Sequence record: ON528730 | From: Shigella phage ESh20 | DNA length: 64,000 nt | Reading direction: 5' to 3' (one strand) | Part shown: piece by piece, positions 2,694-52,673 of the stretch | Position numbering within the stretch: the first letter of the stretch is position 1 | Layout of the letters: every line of letters begins with the position of its first letter | Made by a program: the position numbers and the translations under genes | The notes under the pieces: generated by a model | Databases searched by the model: none | What the model was told of the DNA's origin: nothing | The model's input: only the letters and a program-made list of their open reading frames with translations

Positions 2694-3429
2694 TATAACC
2701 GACTCCTTTCAACCACTGCTTGAGGTTGATTGCATCATAATTCAATTTCGGATATGAGGTTACATGGAACTTCTCACCATCATAGTACACAATATCCGCA
2801 AGCCATAATCCATTCTCACGGCAGAAGTCTTTATCTGCTTTTGAAGAGATTGGTTCAACTTTAGAAAAGTTTTTAATGCCAAGACTACCAAGACTTCCAA
2901 TCAGTCCTTGGCAGATAACGCATGTGTCAGATGTTACCACAAATAATTCTTTTGCGTCAACTTCTGCAATAAAACTTTCAAGTTGAACTTTTGGAAGATT
3001 AGACTGTTTCATAATCTTACCATCAGACTTGCGAATAATCGCAAACCACTCTTTACCTTCAATAATTGATTGACGCAGGTAACATTCATCACCAGTACGT
3101 TTCTCAATATCAAACATTCGCTGTAAAGCTTCTTGATAGTCGTCTGTGTATTTGAGGTTGTTGTTTTCACAAACAGCCTTGATAGCACCATCATGGTCAT
3201 GCTGTGTCAGGAAAATTAAACCATCAAGTACATACTGCAAATCAGCTTGAGCATCAAGGGTCTCAACAGGGTCTTTGGCTTCTACTGCTGCGACTAACTC
3301 TCTAGCTTCTTCAAGCATACACAGAGATTGACTTTTCAGTGATTCCCAATACTCTGTGCTATATGGTTCTTTTGGGTTATTGCCACAACGTAGATTCCAA
3401 TTTCTTACGGATTCTCTGGAATTAAACAT
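2674..3429 (-). CDS. Hypothetical protein; N-terminal region weakly resembles MazG-like NTP pyrophosphohydrolase
   Basis: Acidic helical motif EEARELVAAVEAKDPVETLDAQADLQYVLDGL recalled as MazG-like; not verified. Confidence 0.35.
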   Translation of the reverse strand: MFNSRESVRNWNLRCGNNPKEPYSTEYWESLKSQSLCMLEEARELVAAVEAKDPVETLDAQADLQYVLDGLIFLTQHDHDGAIKAVCENNNLKYTDDYQEALQRMFDIEKRTGDECYLRQSIIEGKEWFAIIRKSDGKIMKQSNLPKVQLESFIAEVDAKELFVVTSDTCVICQGLIGSLGSLGIKNFSKVEPISSKADKDFCRENGLWLADIVYYDGEKFHVTSYPKLNYDAINLKQWLKGVGYNGFTEH

Positions 3430-3659
3430 TAAGCCTCCTTATCTTCAAACAACTTTTGTTGAGACTCAATATAGTCCATTCGTTCTTTGAGTTCAACACG
3501 TTTGCTTAACAGATGTTGAATTTGTGATTCCAGAGCATCCATCTCAGCTTCTGTAGCTGACTTAGCTTTACTGATAGTTTCCTTCAGTGCTGCTACGCCA
3601 CTCTGGATTTTAGAAACATGGTCATTTTTGATTTTATTAAACATTTTAAACTCTCTCAT
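3429..3659 (-). CDS. Hypothetical coiled-coil protein (76 aa)
   Basis: ORF track; start overlaps upstream stop. Confidence 0.45.
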   Translation of the reverse strand: MREFKMFNKIKNDHVSKIQSGVAALKETISKAKSATEAEMDALESQIQHLLSKRVELKERMDYIESQQKLFEDKEA

Positions 3660-26171: not shown

Positions 26172-27067
26172 TATGAACTTCCTTCTTGTTGAGATTTATC
26201 TTTTCTGCCTTTGACGATTTGGGCGACTTCTGCCATAATCCCATAATCACCACCTGCTACTGTTTCTTTACCAGCAATGAAATAGTCGTTGCTATTGTTT
26301 GTTTTGCTGACTTTTAAATAATCTTTACTGGTACTTCCACCAGTTTTATCCACTCTTACATAACCATCTCTTACACCTGCATCTGCAAAACTACCTAATT
26401 TATTTGCTTCTAGAGAGCCACCTGTGTTGTTCGTAATAAGACCCTTGTTAGTGTTTGTTACAAACCAGTTATTGTTCTCATCAGTAATTGCCAGAGATGA
26501 ATCAGCAACCTCTACAGGAGTCCAAGCAGTACCATTTAAGGTAACATCTCTAAGGATAACTGCTGAACCAATAGTTGTTGCAGCAATCTTAGAAAGTGTG
26601 TATGCTGTATCTAACACGTTATTACGAGTGTTTACACGGATAACAATTCCACCAGTCATTGGCGTAATGTGCTCAAAAATCTGACTGAATGATGCGTTGT
26701 AAAGGGTCATAACAGCCCTTTGTAAGAAGCTTGGTGTGGTGTCAGAACGTCTTAAGAAAATTTGAATGTAGAGGATAGCTCTGTAAGTGTCATCATCAGC
26801 ACCAATAGGTCTAGGGACTTTAATCAAAGCCCCGATGTTATCAAGTTGTGTGCCAACACCTACACGAATATTTCTTTCAGTATATAACTGATTACTGATA
26901 TCCTCTAATAATTGTAACTCATCTGTGATAGATTTCAATAGACTTGTGTAAATAAACTTATCTTTGAATTGTGTTACAGTTCTTTCGTCCAATGTTTTCT
27001 CATAAAAGTTTTCAATCTTTTTAAACATTGTTACTCCTTGGTAATTGTATACTGTGAGCTTTCCCAA
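26171..27067 (-). CDS. Putative baseplate/tail fibre attachment protein
   Basis: Position between baseplate genes and tail fibres; no motif verified. Confidence 0.35.
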
Positions 27068-45430: not shown

Positions 45431-45454
45431 AAAAAAGACGGTGCAGAGACCGTC
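45431..45454 (-). terminator. Rho-independent terminator (minus strand) closing the tRNA array
   Basis: Minus strand GACGGT-ctctgc-ACCGTC followed by TTTTTT. Confidence 0.55.
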
Positions 45455-48477: not shown

Positions 48478-48560
48478 TGGCATGGGACGGAGGATTCGAA
48501 CCCCTTTGAGTAAGTTTTGGAGGCTTACGCACATGCCTTAGTGTCTTAACATCGTCCCAT
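48478..48560 (-). tRNA. tRNA-Trp (anticodon CCA), enlarged D region
   Basis: Perfect 7-bp acceptor ATGGGAC/GTCCCAT, T-loop TTCGAAT, anticodon loop CTCCAAA, about 8 extra nt in D region. Confidence 0.5.
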
Positions 48561-48724
48561 ACTATATTTCGAAGCTTACCCTGTTATCTCAACACTGTCA
48601 AGCTTCTTCTCAGATTATTTACATGTTCTGGAAAACATGAGATACAGACCACCTCCTTATGAGATTGACTCTTTCAAGTCAATGCGGAGACCCATAAAGG
48701 TCGTCATAGTAATCTGCTAACTAA

Positions 48725-48843
48725 TTGGCAGTCAAGGTAGGAGTCGAACCTACTTACTATTAAAGGGAGCTACCCTTCAGCAACTATCCGACTTTCGTTT
48801 ATCTCTTAACGCGTATCCAAGATAACTTACTCGTGTTGTCTTG
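48725..48843 (-). ncRNA. tRNA-like element with about 40-nt internal insertion (not a canonical tRNA)
   Basis: CCA-rc and 7-bp acceptor AGTCAAG paired with CTTGACC 119 nt apart; canonical T-arm GTAGG-TTCGACT-CCTAC; no canonical anticodon arm identified. Confidence 0.4.
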
Positions 48844-48854
48844 ACCATTAAAAT

Positions 48855-49491: not shown

Positions 49492-49914
49492 ATTAAATCA
49501 TCTTTGCAGTAACCTACGCAAACCTTGCTAAAGGGTTTGTAGAGTCATCTCTTATAAGCTAATCTAGAATCATGCTCAAGAGACTCTTCGGCACTCATGG
49601 GACGACTGGTTAGCTCCATAAGTCACTGCAAAGAGGATTACCAGACCGTATTTATCTTAAGTGCTTCCATTACACCAACACGCCGTAACGTGTGAAGGAA
49701 TCGAACCTTCGCCTTTTCTTTATAAGAGAAATAGATTGTTTATTGTTTGCTGTAAACGGTCTTCTGTAAAATTGTTGGAACCAGACCAAGTTTTAAATTT
49801 TTCAAATTAAATTGGCTTGAAATATTAAAATTGCTTGCTGTATTTGGTCTTCTGCTCCTTTAAAGAATACTCGTAAGAACTCTTTAAGGGAGGGGCTAAA
49901 AAGCCCTCTCAAAT

Positions 49915-49991
49915 TTGGCGGTTACGAAGGGATTCGAACCCTCATCATCCTCCGTGACAGGGAGGTATTTTGACCAGTTAAACTACATAAC
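49915..49991 (-). tRNA. tRNA-Asp (anticodon GTC)
   Basis: T-loop TTCGAAT, anticodon arm CCTCC-CTGTCAC-GGAGG. Confidence 0.7.
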
Positions 49992-49997
49992 CTTTAT

Positions 49998-50085
49998 TTG
50001 GTGCGCCGTGAAGGAGTCGAACCTCCCGAGTCATAATGACAAGTGATTTACAGTCACCACCGCTTCCATCTACGGGATAACGACG
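49998..50085 (-). tRNA. tRNA-Tyr (anticodon GTA), type II
   Basis: T-loop TTCGACT, long variable arm hairpin, anticodon loop CTGTAAA, 3-bp D stem. Confidence 0.6.
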
Positions 50086-50154
50086 CATTTTATTCTATTC
50101 AGGCTAAGGACTTGCACCTTACAAATCGGTGAGCAATCGCTTCTCTCCCAAATC

Positions 50155-50231
50155 TTGGCGGTTAGTCAGGGATTCGAACCCTGTACCATTCGGTTAACAG
50201 CCGACCGCACATGCCTTATGTGCTTCCTAAC
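50155..50231 (-). tRNA. tRNA-Asn (anticodon GTT)
   Basis: T-arm CAGGG-TTCGAAT-CCCTG, anticodon arm TCGG-CTGTTAA-CCGA. Confidence 0.65.
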
Positions 50232-50315
50232 CATGTTAGTATTACCAGACCGTATCTTTTCATTTTTTGCCTATAAAAAATTTTAAGTGTTTGCTGTAAA
50301 CGGCCTTCTGTAAAT

Positions 50316-50392
50316 TTGGAGGCGGGTGTAGGAGTCGAACCTACCGATAACATGCTAATGAGACATGTGAGACACCCTTTCTCTATACCCGC
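50316..50392 (-). tRNA. tRNA with CAT anticodon and unpaired position 1:72 (initiator-like or Ile2-like)
   Basis: T-arm GTAGG-TTCGACT-CCTAC, anticodon loop CTCATTA closed by T:G pair, U1:C72 mismatch. Confidence 0.5.
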
Positions 50393-50479
50393 AATTCTTA
50401 ATGACCAGACCAAATCTTTTTTGGATTTCTATGCGCGAAATTGAAAAGTTTGTTTGCTGTAATTGGTCTTCTGTCAAAA

Positions 50480-50643: not shown

Positions 50644-50775
50644 GATAATCTTTTTAACAACCTATGTAACAACTATAACACTATTTTTTAGTGTCTGTCA
50701 AGAGGTTTTTTAAAATAATTTGATTTATTTCAGAAAACTTCTTTTTCGTTTCTATGTAGAACATATTAAAGGGTA

Positions 50776-50809: not shown

Positions 50810-52225
50810 TTACCAATCGTAGCGTTCAATAATTACTGCTTTGAGCATTACGCTGATAGGGTCAAACTTCTCACCACCAAGCAAAGCTTTTAAAGTGGCT
50901 GGAGAGAAACCAGATACCATCGCTACACCGTTATCCTTTACAGACACTTCGCAAGTACCGTTACGGTTTGCTAAGTACCAGAATACCAGTTGTGGCATCT
51001 CATATCCAGCTTTCTTGTACTTTTCTTGAATTGCTTCAAAGTTAGTACGACCATCTGCTCCATCAACCTGATTAAACTGCATATCAGAGAAGATGATAAG
51101 CTTACTAGGCATCTCTTTCTGAGTCAAGTTGTTTTTAACACCAGTCTCAAGGATTCTTGCAAAAGCAGCTTGTAGGTCAGTTGAACCATACTCTACATGA
51201 CTCTTCACTTGACGTAAGCGAGTCTGTAAATCACCACTCAATGTGATGAAGTGAGGTCTGCTAGAGTAAACCATCAATTCATCTTTAAAGCAACCTGTAT
51301 TACGTTCTGAAACGTACAGGGCTAAAGATACACCAATGTCTAGCGCTGTAACAGAACCATGTCGCTCCCAAGTCATAGATGAAGATACATCTGCCATGCA
51401 CAGAATGTTCTCACCCTCTTTCATCCAGTTTGGTAAAGCTTTCCACTGCTCATTTGCAACGGTTGCATTACCATAACCGACTGACTTTGTAATGTCATAA
51501 GGGTAGACTGCACCAGCATTAATCTTTGTCTCACCTTTAGTCAGTGCTGCAATGTATGCTGCATAACGCTCACCATCTTTACGACTGAAGAGTTTTTGAT
51601 AACGTGCAGCAGCCAGTGAAGGAAGCTTGCTGTAATCAATCTCTCCGAACTCATTTGCTGAAATCTTTTGTTCAACAGTATCAGACAGTGCTGACAGAAG
51701 AACTCGATACTGCTTCTCTGAAAGATTTGCAAACTTACAGAAACGACGAACAAAACGCATGTGTCGTGATTTTACTCGTGGTAACCATTTTGCTGCCAGA
51801 GCCGATGTTGCAGGGTCTAACAGTGCAGCTTCTAAATGCTTGAAAGCATCTGTTTCGTAACGTGTACCAACAAAGATTTTAAAGTCGTCATAACGACCTA
51901 AATCAGAAATCTTGTCCATGATACGTAACACTTGGAACTCATCAAGAATCCCGTCAGAGATTGCTTTAGTAAGAGTATAACGGAACGCTTTACGCTCACC
52001 CATACCTTCTCGTGCATCTCGCATATGTAACAGGATTCGAACTGCTACATCAATATCTTCTCGCATTGCCTTGTAAAACAAGTTTGGAAGAACTTCTACG
52101 TTTGTTCTGCTTGAACCAGCAGCTTTGTAGAAATCTACCAGTGCAGACATTGAAGAGGTGTGGTTAACAGCACCGTTTTCAGTTAAACCTGCATGTAAAT
52201 GCGAGTGTTTAAATAATTCGCTCAT
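50810..52225 (-). CDS. vWA-domain protein with N-terminal domain of unknown function
   Basis: MIDAS-like DxSxS motif in ILCMADVSSSMTWERHG at about residue 279; 471 aa; adjacent to tRNA array. Confidence 0.55.
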   Translation of the reverse strand: MSELFKHSHLHAGLTENGAVNHTSSMSALVDFYKAAGSSRTNVEVLPNLFYKAMREDIDVAVRILLHMRDAREGMGERKAFRYTLTKAISDGILDEFQVLRIMDKISDLGRYDDFKIFVGTRYETDAFKHLEAALLDPATSALAAKWLPRVKSRHMRFVRRFCKFANLSEKQYRVLLSALSDTVEQKISANEFGEIDYSKLPSLAAARYQKLFSRKDGERYAAYIAALTKGETKINAGAVYPYDITKSVGYGNATVANEQWKALPNWMKEGENILCMADVSSSMTWERHGSVTALDIGVSLALYVSERNTGCFKDELMVYSSRPHFITLSGDLQTRLRQVKSHVEYGSTDLQAAFARILETGVKNNLTQKEMPSKLIIFSDMQFNQVDGADGRTNFEAIQEKYKKAGYEMPQLVFWYLANRNGTCEVSVKDNGVAMVSGFSPATLKALLGGEKFDPISVMLKAVIIERYDW

Positions 52226-52301: not shown

Positions 52302-52673
52302 TTATTTTTTCAGAGTTGCTACAGCAGAGAACGTTGGTTTGTTCTCCTGTGCTCCCTGCCCTCCATTTTCAGAAGGTTTTTTACTATCTGCTGCAATTGC
52401 TTTCATCTCACCTGCTGAGTGAGTCATGATGGTTTTACCAGCTTCCATCATGGACTTTAAGTTTACATCTTCAGCCTTTAATCCGAACTCTGCAAGCTTG
52501 TCAGCATTACGTGTGACAATGGCCTCAAACAGCTTTGCAGCATACTCTGCTGAGTTATCAATAGTCAACTGTGCCTTGACCAGTGAACTCTTGTTACGTG
52601 AGCCTTTGGGTCTACCTGATGGGTTACCAGATTGACCTTTCTTGAATTGGCCTTTGTTTGTTCGTTTCGTCAT
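52302..52673 (-). CDS. Small basic protein with GNPSGRPKG motif (possible DNA-binding or terminase small subunit-like)
   Basis: N-terminal KGQSGNPSGRPKGSRNK; function not verified. Confidence 0.3.
   Translation of the reverse strand: MTKRTNKGQFKKGQSGNPSGRPKGSRNKSSLVKAQLTIDNSAEYAAKLFEAIVTRNADKLAEFGLKAEDVNLKSMMEAGKTIMTHSAGEMKAIAADSKKPSENGGQGAQENKPTFSAVATLKK

What the first reader, a model, noticed from the sequence alone, without database searches (positions are those of the whole stretch)
48725..48843. 119-nt tRNA-like element with internal insertion, 2 kb from a vWA-domain protein (possible Y-RNA/Ro60-like pair)
This element has a CCA-encoding end, a 7-bp acceptor-like stem (AGTCAAG / CTTGACC) and a perfect canonical T-arm (GTAGG-TTCGACT-CCTAC), but the paired ends are 119 nt apart and I could not find a canonical anticodon arm. 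That pattern fits a tRNA-like ncRNA rather than a tRNA. Bacterial Y-RNA-like RNAs (YrlA) are tRNA mimics bound by Ro60-type proteins, which combine a TROVE domain with a C-terminal vWA/MIDAS domain. The nearby 471-aa protein (50810..52225) has a MIDAS-type DVSSSM motif. The link is speculative.
Basis: inference. Interest (0 to 1): 0.7.

Follow-up and report, generated by a model that had tools for sequence, protein, structure and literature searches.

The report
Orphan tRNA-like RNA in phage array
The flagged element is a real, conserved but unannotated tRNA-shaped RNA gene that cannot decode, sitting in the tRNA array of a Felix O1-like phage; the nearby protein does have a Ro60-like fold, but its likely Y-RNA partners are four other small RNAs closer to it, not this element.

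Summary
Observation confirmed. On the minus strand, 48726..48846 encodes a 121-nt RNA with a 7-bp acceptor stem, a canonical T-arm and an encoded G-CCA, but no anticodon arm. It lies 8 nt after tRNA-Arg in a 26-tRNA array of a Mooglevirus (99% to Sf17/Mordin). ARAGORN (with or without introns), tmRNA mode and Rfam do not call it.

Twelve distinct copies show compensatory changes in both extra hairpins. Variation avoids the tRNA-like core (5/61 vs 26/60 columns). It is an accessory cassette: 24 phage records carry it, and Sf14 has lost it cleanly.

The 471-aa protein has a Ro60-like fold (Foldseek top 10 are all Ro60/TROVE). This was already noted for its Bas63 ortholog gp130.

The proposed pairing is not supported. 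The protein occurs in about 250 related phages, most lacking this RNA, including Bas63. I found four other small RNAs at 49638..50476, one with YrlA's permuted T/closed-stem/D topology. They belong to a family (closing stem + CAGCAA) that flanks Ro-like genes in diverse phages. The 121-nt element fails that family's tests.

Best reading: a processed, non-decoding tRNA mimic of unknown role.

The parts
48726..48846 (-). The finding: a 121-nt tRNA-like RNA gene (acceptor stem, two non-tRNA hairpins, D-loop-like linker, T-arm, G-CCA)
   Evidence: Sequence; 13-row alignment A3; structure counts show 96.7% paired vs 40-49% when slid; own model scores it at 146 bits
48840..48846 (-). Acceptor stem, 5' strand GGUCAAG (pairs with 48730..48736, G1.U72 wobble)
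   Evidence: Invariant in all copies; the 3:70 pair is U:A or U.G
48827..48839 (-). Linker 1, ACAACACGAGUAA, single-stranded; 12 of 13 positions invariant
48797..48826 (-). Hairpin 1 (the 'insertion'): 8-bp stem with a bulge. The loop carries a 6-nt palindrome, ACGCGU here and ACAUGU in Sf19/Suspvirus
   Evidence: Pair 23:47 is U:A in 6 and C:G in 6 distinct sequences; palindrome read from alignment A3
48784..48796 (-). Linker 2, GAAAGUCGGAUAG: D-loop-like (AGUCGGAUA with a GG), complementary to the T-loop; 12 of 13 positions invariant
48754..48783 (-). Hairpin 2: extended stem (5 + 6 bp, 3-nt bulge) closed by the pentaloop UAGCU; occupies the anticodon-arm position but cannot decode
   Evidence: Pairs 74:80 (G:C<->U:A) and 71:83 change on both sides; KPS64 has lost one base pair; G66->A keeps 66:91 paired
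48737..48753 (-). T-arm GUAGG-UUCGACU-CCUAC
   Evidence: Invariant stem; identical to the T-arm of tRNA-Met 50317..50393
48726..48736 (-). Acceptor 3' strand CUUGACU plus discriminator G and encoded CCA
   Evidence: the other tRNAs of the array also end in CCA
50810..52225 (-). Context: 471-aa Ro60-like protein (DUF2828 + DUF7788/vWA, MIDAS DVSSSM), ortholog of Bas63 gp130, directly upstream of the array
49638..49769 (-). Context, not part of the finding: YrlA-like long RNA (closing stem, ACAGCAA, anticodon-arm-like hairpin, T-arm, closed acceptor-like hairpin, UG, D-arm)
   Evidence: 153 bits with R2
49781..49854 (-). Context: short Y-like RNA (AGACCAA..ACAGCAA..UUGGUCU)
   Evidence: R2 19.4 bits, E 0.06
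50242..50313 (-). Context: short Y-like RNA filling the tRNA-Met/tRNA-Asn spacer
   Evidence: R2 45.7 bits
50402..50476 (-). Context: short Y-like RNA filling the tRNA-Glu/tRNA-Met spacer
   Evidence: R2 36.7 bits

Best explanation
The element is a gene for a tRNA-derived, non-decoding tRNA mimic.

Shown:
- It keeps the parts of a tRNA that processing and tRNA-binding proteins read: a 7-bp acceptor stem, the T-arm, a D-loop-like GG segment that can form the elbow with the T-loop, and a discriminator plus CCA.
- The D-stem and anticodon arm are replaced by two covarying hairpins, one of them closed by a pentaloop.
- It lies in register with the tRNAs of the array.
- It is gained or lost as a unit at tRNA boundaries.

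Inferred:
- It is co-transcribed with the array.
- It is cut out by host RNase P at G1 and by 3' trimming to CCA.
- It accumulates as a stable RNA of about 121 nt.

Inferred with low confidence: because it is tRNA-shaped but cannot decode, and is an accessory cassette that varies among near-identical phages, it most likely acts as a decoy or adaptor for a tRNA-binding factor, such as a host tRNA-directed defence or processing enzyme. It is not likely to work in translation, and it is not the dedicated partner of the Ro60-like protein.
For: - tRNA top half and CCA are present.
- It sits 8 nt after tRNA-Arg on the same strand inside a 26-tRNA array, between a strong promoter-like site at 50701..50672 and a terminator-like site at 45454..45437.
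- Compensatory changes occur in both hairpins, with 96.7% pairing against 40-49% for slid controls.
- Variation falls in 5 of 61 core columns against 26 of 60 hairpin columns, Fisher p = 8e-6.
- Conservation is about that of tRNA-Arg and higher than that of the adjacent spacers in Suspvirus.
- Sf14 lacks exactly the spacer plus the element, between two TGCCA ends.
- Distribution is restricted to 24 records in Mooglevirus and Suspvirus.
- The pentaloop's closing pair covaries, so there is no 7-nt anticodon loop.
- RNase P cleaves phage polycistronic tRNA precursors and other tRNA-like substrates (review PMC11143913).
Against: - There is no expression or end-mapping data.
- The single-sequence fold is not unusually stable (z = -1.6).
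- Covariation rests on few evolutionary events among closely related phages (85-100% identity).
- The proposed decoy or adaptor role has no direct support, and no target has been identified.
- Clean loss in Sf14, Sf13 and KMM4 shows the element is dispensable and would also fit a neutral passenger.
Confidence: 0.5

Rival explanations
1. It is a Y-RNA-like ligand of the Ro60-like protein: a lineage-specific extra RNA that loads onto the protein, or tethers it to tRNA enzymes through its tRNA-shaped half.
For: - It lies 1.96 kb downstream of the Ro60-like gene on the same strand, within the 4-kb same-strand rule used for YrlA (PMC4201824).
- Its size is typical of Y RNAs.
- Its terminal stem GGUCAAG/CUUGACU-G shares GGUC, (C)UUGACU and the G.U pair with the Ro-binding helix of mouse Y1 and human Y4, as printed in PMC6060611.
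- It has an invariant ACGAAAG, close to GNCGAAN0-1G and to the CGAA motif used to find Thermus phage Yrl RNAs.
- Bacteria often have several Y RNAs per Ro60.
Against: - It is present in 24 records against about 252 for the protein, and is absent from Bas63, where gp130 is functional.
- Its tRNA topology is normal, not permuted.
- There is no Y_RNA or YrlA hit in Rfam even at E<=10 on the element alone.
- It lacks the bulged C of Y RNAs and the first G of the YrlA motif.
- It fails the closing-stem + CAGCAA signature and model R2 of the RNAs that really co-occur with this protein family.
- The invariant linker 2 is explained more simply as a D-loop mimic.
Confidence: 0.15
2. It is a decaying tRNA pseudogene: a former tRNA that suffered an insertion of about 40 nt and lost its anticodon loop. 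It is still co-transcribed but has no function.
For: - ARAGORN at a relaxed threshold forces a poor 'tRNA-Ala(AGC)' onto 48726..48804.
- The T-arm is identical to that of a resident tRNA-Met, suggesting origin by duplication.
- It is dispensable: lost in Sf14 and absent from Felixounavirus.
- The tRNA array is full of indels and homing-endonuclease insertions.
Against: - The inserted hairpin itself shows a compensatory change.
- The single-stranded linkers are nearly invariant while the stems vary with compensation.
- The acceptor stem and T-arm are intact in all 12 distinct copies across two genera.
- There are no frame-independent indels inside it, while flanking spacers carry 23-34-nt indels.
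Confidence: 0.2
3. It is a working tRNA with an unusual expansion or a short intron that is removed, or one that is aminoacylated despite its shape.
For: It has an intact acceptor stem, discriminator G and CCA, and removing columns 8-50 leaves a 78-nt molecule.
Against: - ARAGORN with introns allowed finds nothing at default thresholds.
- Rfam tRNA scores 13.9 bits against a cutoff of 29.
- The would-be anticodon loop has positions 32:38 Watson-Crick paired and covarying, U at position 37, and varies (UAGCU, UAGCG).
- No short-intron splicing pathway is known for bacterial or phage tRNAs (established knowledge).
Confidence: 0.05
4. It matters at the DNA level: the 3' strand TTGACT plus a downstream TACTAT form a promoter-like site (48735..48706) that could drive the distal half of the array, or the unit is simply a recombination scar.
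For: A promoter-like hit at 9/12. In Sf14 the deletion removes the TTGACT.
Against: Promoter-like sites in the region are no more frequent than in shuffles (16 vs 16.0). A promoter would not explain compensatory changes in two hairpins or the tRNA-like top half.
Confidence: 0.03

Closest known systems
YrlA-type bacterial Y RNAs (Chen et al. 2014, PMC4201824)
   Same: A non-coding RNA of about 100-120 nt that mimics tRNA (T-arm, D-loop features), encoded within 4 kb of and on the same strand as a Ro60-type gene. M. smegmatis YrlA is even cut by RNase P and receives CCA.
   Different: In YrlA the acceptor-like stem is a closed hairpin between the T and D arms (permuted order), the RNA ends lie in a separate Ro-binding stem, and a GNCGAAN0-1G motif sits near the 5' end. 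This element has ordinary tRNA topology with open ends and an encoded CCA, no true D-arm and only a partial motif. It does not co-distribute with the protein.
The closing-stem + CAGCAA RNAs that flank DUF2828-type Ro60-like genes
   Same: Same array, same strand, similar size to the long form, a 7-bp terminal stem starting R-G and ending C-U followed by G, and an A/C-rich single strand right after the stem (ACAACAC vs ACAGCAA).
   Different: It lacks CAGCAA, lacks the N-G-R start, and is not found by model R2 at E<=1. It is present in about 10% of the phages that carry those RNAs.
Bacteriophage T4 stable RNAs 'species 1 and 2' (rnaC, rnaD) in the T4 tRNA cluster (from my own knowledge; I could not read a primary source here)
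   Same: Small stable RNAs of about 120-140 nt, encoded among phage tRNA genes, matured from the tRNA precursor, with tRNA-like ends and an unknown, dispensable function.
   Different: No sequence relationship was tested. T4 belongs to a different phage family, and those RNAs are not linked to a Ro60-like gene.
Non-translating pseudo-tRNAs such as Bacillus cereus tRNA-Other (PMC3399842)
   Same: A tRNA-derived RNA that does not act in translation and may have a regulatory role.
   Different: tRNA-Other keeps a cloverleaf of normal size. This element carries about 45 extra nucleotides and has no anticodon loop. It is phage-encoded, in an array.
Canonical phage tRNA genes of the same array
   Same: Strand, spacing, encoded CCA, 7-bp acceptor stem, T-arm (identical to tRNA-Met 50317..50393).
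   Different: 121 nt instead of 75-93, no D-stem, a pentaloop in place of the anticodon loop, and an extra hairpin.

Membership tests
Canonical tRNA | 7-bp acceptor stem, discriminator, CCA end | tested here: met
   GGUCAAG/CUUGACU-G-CCA, invariant apart from U:A->U.G at 3:70 and one G->A discriminator
Canonical tRNA | T-arm with a 5-bp stem and a UUCRANY loop | tested here: met
   GUAGG-UUCGACU-CCUAC; one copy has UUCAACU, still a purine at position 57
Canonical tRNA | Anticodon arm with a 5-bp stem and a 7-nt loop (U33, purine 37) | tested here: not met
   Hairpin 2 closes to the pentaloop UAGCU and its closing pair covaries G:C<->U:A
Canonical tRNA | D-arm (3-4-bp stem plus a loop with GG) | tested here: inconclusive
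   A D-loop-like AGUCGGAUA is present and invariant. The candidate stem C50-A53/G63-G66 conflicts with hairpin 1 and is broken by G66->A in two phages, whereas 66:91 stays paired
Canonical tRNA | Recognised by tRNA finders or models | tested here: not met
   ARAGORN makes no call by default or with introns. Rfam tRNA gives 13.9 bits against a cutoff of 29
tmRNA | tRNA-like domain plus tag reading frame | tested here: not met
   ARAGORN -m finds none. Rfam tmRNA gives 8.3 bits on the T-arm only
YrlA (bacterial Y RNA) | Encoded within about 4 kb of, and on the same strand as, a Ro60/TROVE-type gene | tested here: met
   1.96 kb downstream of 50810..52225 on the same strand; Ro60-like fold shown
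YrlA (bacterial Y RNA) | Permuted module: T arm, then a closed acceptor-like stem-loop, then a D arm | tested here: not met
   The element has open ends at the acceptor stem, and the T-arm is last. The generic scan finds this module once in the window, at 49661..49710, not here
YrlA (bacterial Y RNA) | GNCGAAN0-1G motif near the 5' end | tested here: not met
   Only ACGAAAG in the middle of the RNA (cols 49-55). The first G is absent in all copies (definition)
YrlA / Y_RNA | Match to a curated covariance model | tested here: not met
   No Y_RNA or YrlA match at gathering score or at E<=10 on the element alone. I could not verify which Y-type families Rfam 15 holds
Metazoan Y RNA | Ro-binding helix GGUC(C)GA / UUGACU with a bulged C | tested here: not met
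   Shares GGUC, CUUGACU and the G.U pair with mY1/hY4 but has no bulge and has AAG instead of CGA
   The strict scan returns nothing on the element
   Not among 71 matches at E<=1, while four other window RNAs are
   24 records against about 252 for the protein; absent from Felix O1, Bas63 and Sf14
Ro60/TROVE proteins (for the 471-aa protein) | HEAT-repeat ring followed by a vWA domain, matched over the full length | tested here: met
   pLDDT 90.9. The Foldseek top 10 are all Ro60/TROVE (9kop, 1yvr, 2i91, 9nfa, 1yvp, 2nvo), E 1e-9 to 6e-7, TM up to 0.65, 520-570 aligned columns
Ro60/TROVE proteins (for the 471-aa protein) | Sequence-level match to TROVE (Pfam) or to Ro60 in the PDB | tested here: not met
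   Pfam gives DUF2828 + DUF7788 only. The profile against the PDB gives Ro60 at E 0.66, in the MIDAS stretch only
Ro60/TROVE proteins (for the 471-aa protein) | MIDAS motif DxSxS | tested here: met
   DVSSSM; D279, S281 and S283 are invariant in 50 homologs
Ro60/TROVE proteins (for the 471-aa protein) | Binds Y-type RNAs | not testable with these tools
   Indirect only: a conserved RNA family flanks the gene in diverse phages

The most novel reading that the evidence does not exclude
The 121-nt RNA is a lineage-specific fifth RNA of a phage Ro60/Y-RNA particle. In this reading it is a tRNA-shaped adaptor with open CCA ends that the Ro60-like anti-defence protein (ortholog of Bas63 gp130, which counters Ppl) uses alongside the four CAGCAA-type Y-like RNAs, for example to couple the particle to tRNA-processing or tRNA-cleaving enzymes. 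Its resemblance to the metazoan Y-RNA Ro-binding helix (GGUC.../...UUGACU with the G.U pair) would then be functional rather than accidental.
Probability: 0.13. Interest if true: 0.75.

Novelty: new variant of a known kind. Interest (0 to 1): 0.5.

Why it matters
Phage tRNA arrays are usually annotated by tRNA finders alone, so anything that is tRNA-shaped but non-canonical goes unseen. This element is unannotated in all 24 genomes that carry it.

A conserved, non-decoding tRNA mimic that varies among near-identical phages is a candidate for host-specific interference with tRNA-directed enzymes or defences, which is an active question for phage tRNAs.

One has YrlA's permuted tRNA topology. 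They belong to a family found beside this protein in phages of Gram-negative, Gram-positive and mycobacterial hosts. That turns the published speculation that 'some tRNA genes may be Y RNAs' into named, testable candidates.

Tried and rejected
It was redone with 48726..48846.
- ARAGORN with introns, with relaxed thresholds, and in tmRNA and mitochondrial modes gave only a poor forced 'tRNA-Ala(AGC)' at -ps80.
- Rfam at gathering score and at E<=10, on the region and on the element alone, gave nothing but a weak tRNA match.
- A D-stem model (C50-A53 with G63-G66) was rejected because G66->A breaks it while keeping 66:91.
- The RNAalifold alternative, in which AGUCGGA pairs fully with the T-loop instead of the T-stem forming, was kept only as a possible elbow contact. 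The one T-loop change (G->A in Moogle) fits a T-loop purine, not that helix.
- An IMG/VR scan with the 14-mer GGTCAAGACAACAC was too unspecific and mostly returned chance hits. Those contigs were reused as a control set.
- A metagenome scan anchored on linker 2 and the T-arm found one more copy and no new diversity.
- Model R1 found no diverged copy in Felix O1, Sf14, Bas63 or the distant Ro-like loci.
- The GGCGAAG in the YrlA-like RNA is not conserved (GGAGAAG in several phages), so I did not use it.
- The T4 genome review could not be read.
- I did not search for targets complementary to linker 1.
Full report
**Where the window comes from.** The 1-kb region around the finding is 99% identical to Shigella phage Sf17 and Citrobacter phage Mordin (Ounavirinae, Mooglevirus), which are relatives of Felix O1. 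ARAGORN finds 26 tRNA genes on the minus strand between 45612 and 50644. The finding lies inside this array, so it must be read on the minus strand.

**Checking the observation.** On the minus strand the sequence reads GGTCAAG ... GTAGG-TTCGACT-CCTAC-CTTGACT-G-CCA.
- The true limits are 48846 (5') to 48726 (3'), 121 nt including the discriminator and CCA.
- The element starts 8 nt after the CCA of tRNA-Arg(TCT). This is the same kind of spacing as between other tRNAs of the array, and those tRNAs also encode CCA.
- No GenBank record that carries the element annotates it as a gene.

**What it is not.**
- ARAGORN does not call it by default, with introns allowed or as a tmRNA. Only a relaxed threshold forces a poor 'tRNA-Ala(AGC)' with a mismatched acceptor stem.
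- Rfam gives nothing at gathering score.
- On the element alone, Rfam gives only 13.9 bits to tRNA (cutoff 29) and no Y_RNA or YrlA match at E<=10.

**Anatomy and conservation.** blastn finds the element in 24 phage records, all Mooglevirus or Suspvirus, at 85-100% identity. These give 12 distinct sequences. A metagenome scan added one more, non-novel copy.

The alignment (A3) supports this model, in alignment columns:

| Part | Columns | Notes |
|---|---|---|
| Acceptor stem | 1-7 / 111-117 | 7 bp |
| Linker 1 | 8-20 | ACAACACNAGUAA |
| Hairpin 1 | 21-28 / 42-50 | extra, non-tRNA hairpin |
| Linker 2 | 51-63 | GAAAGUCGGAWAG, a D-loop look-alike with the GG that normally docks on the T-loop |
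| Hairpin 2 | 64-74 / 80-93 | ends in the pentaloop UAGCU |
| T-arm | 94-110 | canonical |

Evidence for the model:
- 96.7% of cells are paired, against 40-49% when partners are slid.
- Pair 23:47 is U:A in six and C:G in six distinct sequences.
- Pair 74:80 is G:C or U:A.
- Pair 71:83 changes A:U to G:C.
- KPS64 has lost one whole base pair of hairpin 2.
- Variation is very uneven: 5 of 61 columns vary in the acceptor/T-arm/CCA plus the two linkers, against 26 of 60 in the hairpins (Fisher p = 8e-6).
- Conservation is about that of tRNA-Arg and higher than that of the flanking spacers, which carry 23-34-nt indels in Suspvirus.

This pattern points to an RNA under selection, not a decaying pseudogene. 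The caveat is that the phages are closely related and the number of independent events is small. The T-arm is identical to that of the phage's tRNA-Met at 50317..50393, which suggests a tRNA origin.

**It is a cassette.** Sf14, also a Mooglevirus, lacks exactly the 8-nt spacer plus the element. The deletion lies between the ...GTGCCA of tRNA-Arg and the ...CTGCCA of the element. Sf13 and KMM4 show the same 88% two-piece coverage and are absent from the list of carriers. A covariance model of the element (R1) finds no diverged copy in Felix O1, Sf14, Bas63, nine other Felixounavirus-type loci or eight distant loci.

**The protein.** ORF 50810..52225 (minus, 471 aa) matches Pfam DUF2828 and DUF7788, not TROVE. 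Sequence searches of the PDB give Ro60 only at E about 0.7, over the MIDAS stretch. With an alignment of 50 homologs, AlphaFold gives pLDDT 90.9 and pTM 0.90. Foldseek against the PDB returns Ro60/TROVE structures as its ten best matches, aligned over the whole length (E 1e-9 to 6e-7, TM up to 0.65). Isolated vWA domains follow only at E around 1e-3.

- Depositors already call relatives 'Ro-like RNA binding protein' or 'RNA-binding protein'.
- Bas63_0130 is 84% identical to the window protein over all 471 residues and has the same synteny.
- My best fold hit, 9KOP, is a Thermus phage Ro60 that binds two Y-like RNAs encoded next to it (PMC12135203).

**Is the 121-nt RNA its partner?** The distributions do not match:

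| Feature | Phage records |
|---|---|
| Ro60-like protein at >=80% identity | about 252 |
| 121-nt element | 24 |

Bas63, in which gp130 has a phenotype, lacks the element. Its Arg-Ser gap is 238 nt and R1 finds nothing.

YrlA is defined by a GNCGAAN0-1G motif, T and D arms separated by a closed acceptor-like hairpin, and proximity to Ro60 (PMC4201824). The element meets only the T-arm and proximity criteria.

Two resemblances keep the idea alive:
- Its terminal stem shares GGUC, CUUGACU and the G.U pair with the Ro-binding helix of mouse Y1 and human Y4, whose sequences I checked in PMC6060611. It lacks the bulged C.
- It has an invariant ACGAAAG. This lies in the D-loop-like linker, which explains its conservation more simply.

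**What the Ro60-like gene is really accompanied by.** The array has exactly three T-loop motifs outside called tRNAs. One belongs to the finding. One belongs to a Trp-like tRNA (described below). The third lies at 49686..49760, which Rfam scores as a borderline tRNA. DNA homologous to that third element occurs in 251 records, the same range as the protein.

Folded alone and as an alignment, 49638..49769 forms, in order:
- a 12-bp closing stem with an asymmetric internal loop
- ACAGCAA
- a linker
- an anticodon-arm-like hairpin whose loop is not conserved (7 or 6 nt)
- a T-arm
- a closed acceptor-like hairpin
- UG
- a perfect D-arm

This is YrlA's permuted order. The closed hairpin has three different sequences in Ounavirinae: ACACGU/GCGUGU, ACUCG/CGAGU and ACCCUUC/GAAGGGU. 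Three of its six pairs are changed on both sides, with 100% pairing.

A strict generic scan for 'T-arm, closed hairpin, two nucleotides, D-arm' gave:

| Sequence set | Size | Hits |
|---|---|---|
| Window | 64 kb | 1 |
| 75 distant Ro-like loci | 636 kb | 8, all on the gene's strand |
| Unrelated viral contigs | 321 kb | 0 |

A second, independent signature is a 7-bp closing stem starting N-G-R, then 1-3 nt, then [A/U/C]CAGCAA. It gave:

| Sequence set | Hits |
|---|---|
| Ro-like loci, gene strand | 73 (44 of 75 loci) |
| Ro-like loci, opposite strand | 3 |
| Controls, both strands | 4 |

- 59 of the 73 lie within 600 nt of the gene.
- Lengths are bimodal: about 50-67 nt and about 96-139 nt.
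- Eight of the nine modules from the first scan lie inside long forms from the second.

A model built only from Ounavirinae sequences (R2) finds full-length matches beside distant Ro-like genes, with 70 of 71 matches on the gene's strand:

| Phage | Score |
|---|---|
| Bacillus PBC2 | 60 bits, E 2e-13 |
| Klebsiella KP2025 | 60 and 48 bits |
| Mycobacteriophage Archie | 43 bits, E 2e-8 |
| Many metagenomic phages | significant, full-length |

On the resulting model-fitted alignment, 91% of cells pair against 40-47% when slid, and all 31 pairs show changes on both sides.

The window holds four members, interleaved with the first tRNAs of the array: 50402..50476, 50242..50313, 49781..49854 and 49638..49769. 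The same set is syntenic in Felix O1, Bas63, Michonne and phiSUSP1. I found no description of these RNAs in the searchable literature or in Rfam. That is not proof that none exists.

The 121-nt element fails both the signature and R2.

The Ro-like gene also recurs next to tRNA genes:
- In six of nine diverse isolates.
- In 13 of 67 IMG/VR loci within 1 kb, with 90 of 90 tRNAs on the same strand.
- With an RtcB ligase nearby in a Listeria phage.

**Most likely mechanism for the finding.**
- Shown: a conserved RNA gene with a tRNA's acceptor stem, T-arm, elbow-forming segment and CCA; two covarying non-tRNA hairpins; no anticodon loop; in register with the array; gained or lost as a unit.
- Inferred from established tRNA processing (review PMC11143913): it is transcribed with the array, between the promoter-like site at 50701..50672 and the terminator-like site at 45454..45437. 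RNase P and 3' trimming then release it as a stable RNA of about 121 nt.
- Inferred with low confidence: it acts as a tRNA mimic (decoy or adaptor) for a tRNA-binding factor, as an accessory, host-specific function.

I put about 0.5 on this package, 0.2 on a functionless remnant, 0.15 on a Ro60-like ligand and less on the remaining readings.

**Limits.**
- There is no expression data.
- Covariation in the element rests on few events.
- The control set for the RNA-family scans is small (35 contigs).
- Model E-values are rough.
- Alignment A7 is fitted to the model.
- The comparison with the T4 species 1 and 2 RNAs rests on my own knowledge.

Noticed in passing
window 49638..49769 (-): A YrlA-like RNA with a circularly permuted tRNA module (closing stem, ACAGCAA, anticodon-arm-like hairpin, T-arm, closed acceptor-like hairpin, UG, D-arm), 1.05 kb downstream of the Ro60-like gene. 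Homologous DNA occurs in 251 phage records. The closed hairpin has three compensated versions. Rfam sees only a borderline tRNA at 49686..49760, and some records annotate it as tRNA-Thr or tRNA-Met or as a hypothetical protein.
   Followed up: yes
window 50402..50476, 50242..50313, 49781..49854 (-); loci L136-L143, L157-L223: A family of short (about 50-67 nt) and long (about 96-139 nt) RNAs with a covarying 7-bp closing stem (N-G-R.../...Y-C-N) followed by (A/U)CAGCAA. They occur in tandem sets within 600 nt of DUF2828-type Ro60-like genes in phages of Listeria, Staphylococcus, Bacillus, Mycobacterium, Campylobacter, Fusobacterium and Klebsiella, and in many metagenomic phages. Counts are 73 on the gene strand vs 3 on the other strand, and 4 in controls. 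I found them in neither Rfam nor the searchable literature.
   Followed up: yes
window 48478..48560 (-): An unannotated tRNA-Trp-like gene: 7-8-bp acceptor stem, G-CCA, T-arm, anticodon stem with the loop CUCCAAA flanked by a C.A mismatch, and about 8 extra nt between the acceptor and D stems. Three compensatory changes in the anticodon stem and one in the T stem between the window and Sf14. Present in 235 records and never annotated. It is the only candidate Trp tRNA in the array.
   Followed up: partly
window 48806..48811 (-), loop of hairpin 1: The loop carries a 6-nt palindrome that stays palindromic through a double change (ACGCGU in Mooglevirus, ACAUGU in Sf19 and Suspvirus). This is compatible with a loop-loop (kissing) dimer or with a DNA-level site.
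   Followed up: no
window 48726..48846 vs mouse Y1 / human Y4: The terminal stem GGUCAAG/CUUGACU-G shares GGUC, (C)UUGACU and the G.U pair with the Ro-binding helix of metazoan Y RNAs (sequences from PMC6060611), but lacks the bulged C.
   Followed up: partly
loci L135-L143, L157-L223: The Ro60-like gene is repeatedly adjacent to tRNA arrays on the same strand: 6 of 9 isolates, and 13 of 67 IMG/VR loci within 1 kb with 90 of 90 tRNAs co-oriented. In Listeria phage LP-083-2 an RtcB-type ligase lies 1.3 kb downstream, recalling the bacterial rsr-yrlBA-rtcBA operon.
   Followed up: partly
window 52302..52673 (-): A DUF5681 protein lies immediately upstream of the Ro60-like gene. The same pair is present in Felix O1 and Bas63.
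   Followed up: no
window 48706..48735 (-): The element's 3' strand TTGACT and a downstream TACTAT form a weak promoter-like site (9/12, 18-nt spacer) that the Sf14 deletion removes. Promoter-like sites are not enriched in the region.
   Followed up: no
L136 (Klebsiella phage KP2025) 3405..3836: A 432-nt feature annotated 'tRNA-Arg-TCT' overlaps the start of the DUF2828 gene. Rfam places a normal tRNA at 3405..3476 only, so the annotation is probably an error.
   Followed up: no
window 26493..26551 (+): One further match to the strict closing-stem + CAGCAA signature, outside the array and on the other strand. This is at about the rate seen in control DNA, so it is probably chance.
   Followed up: no
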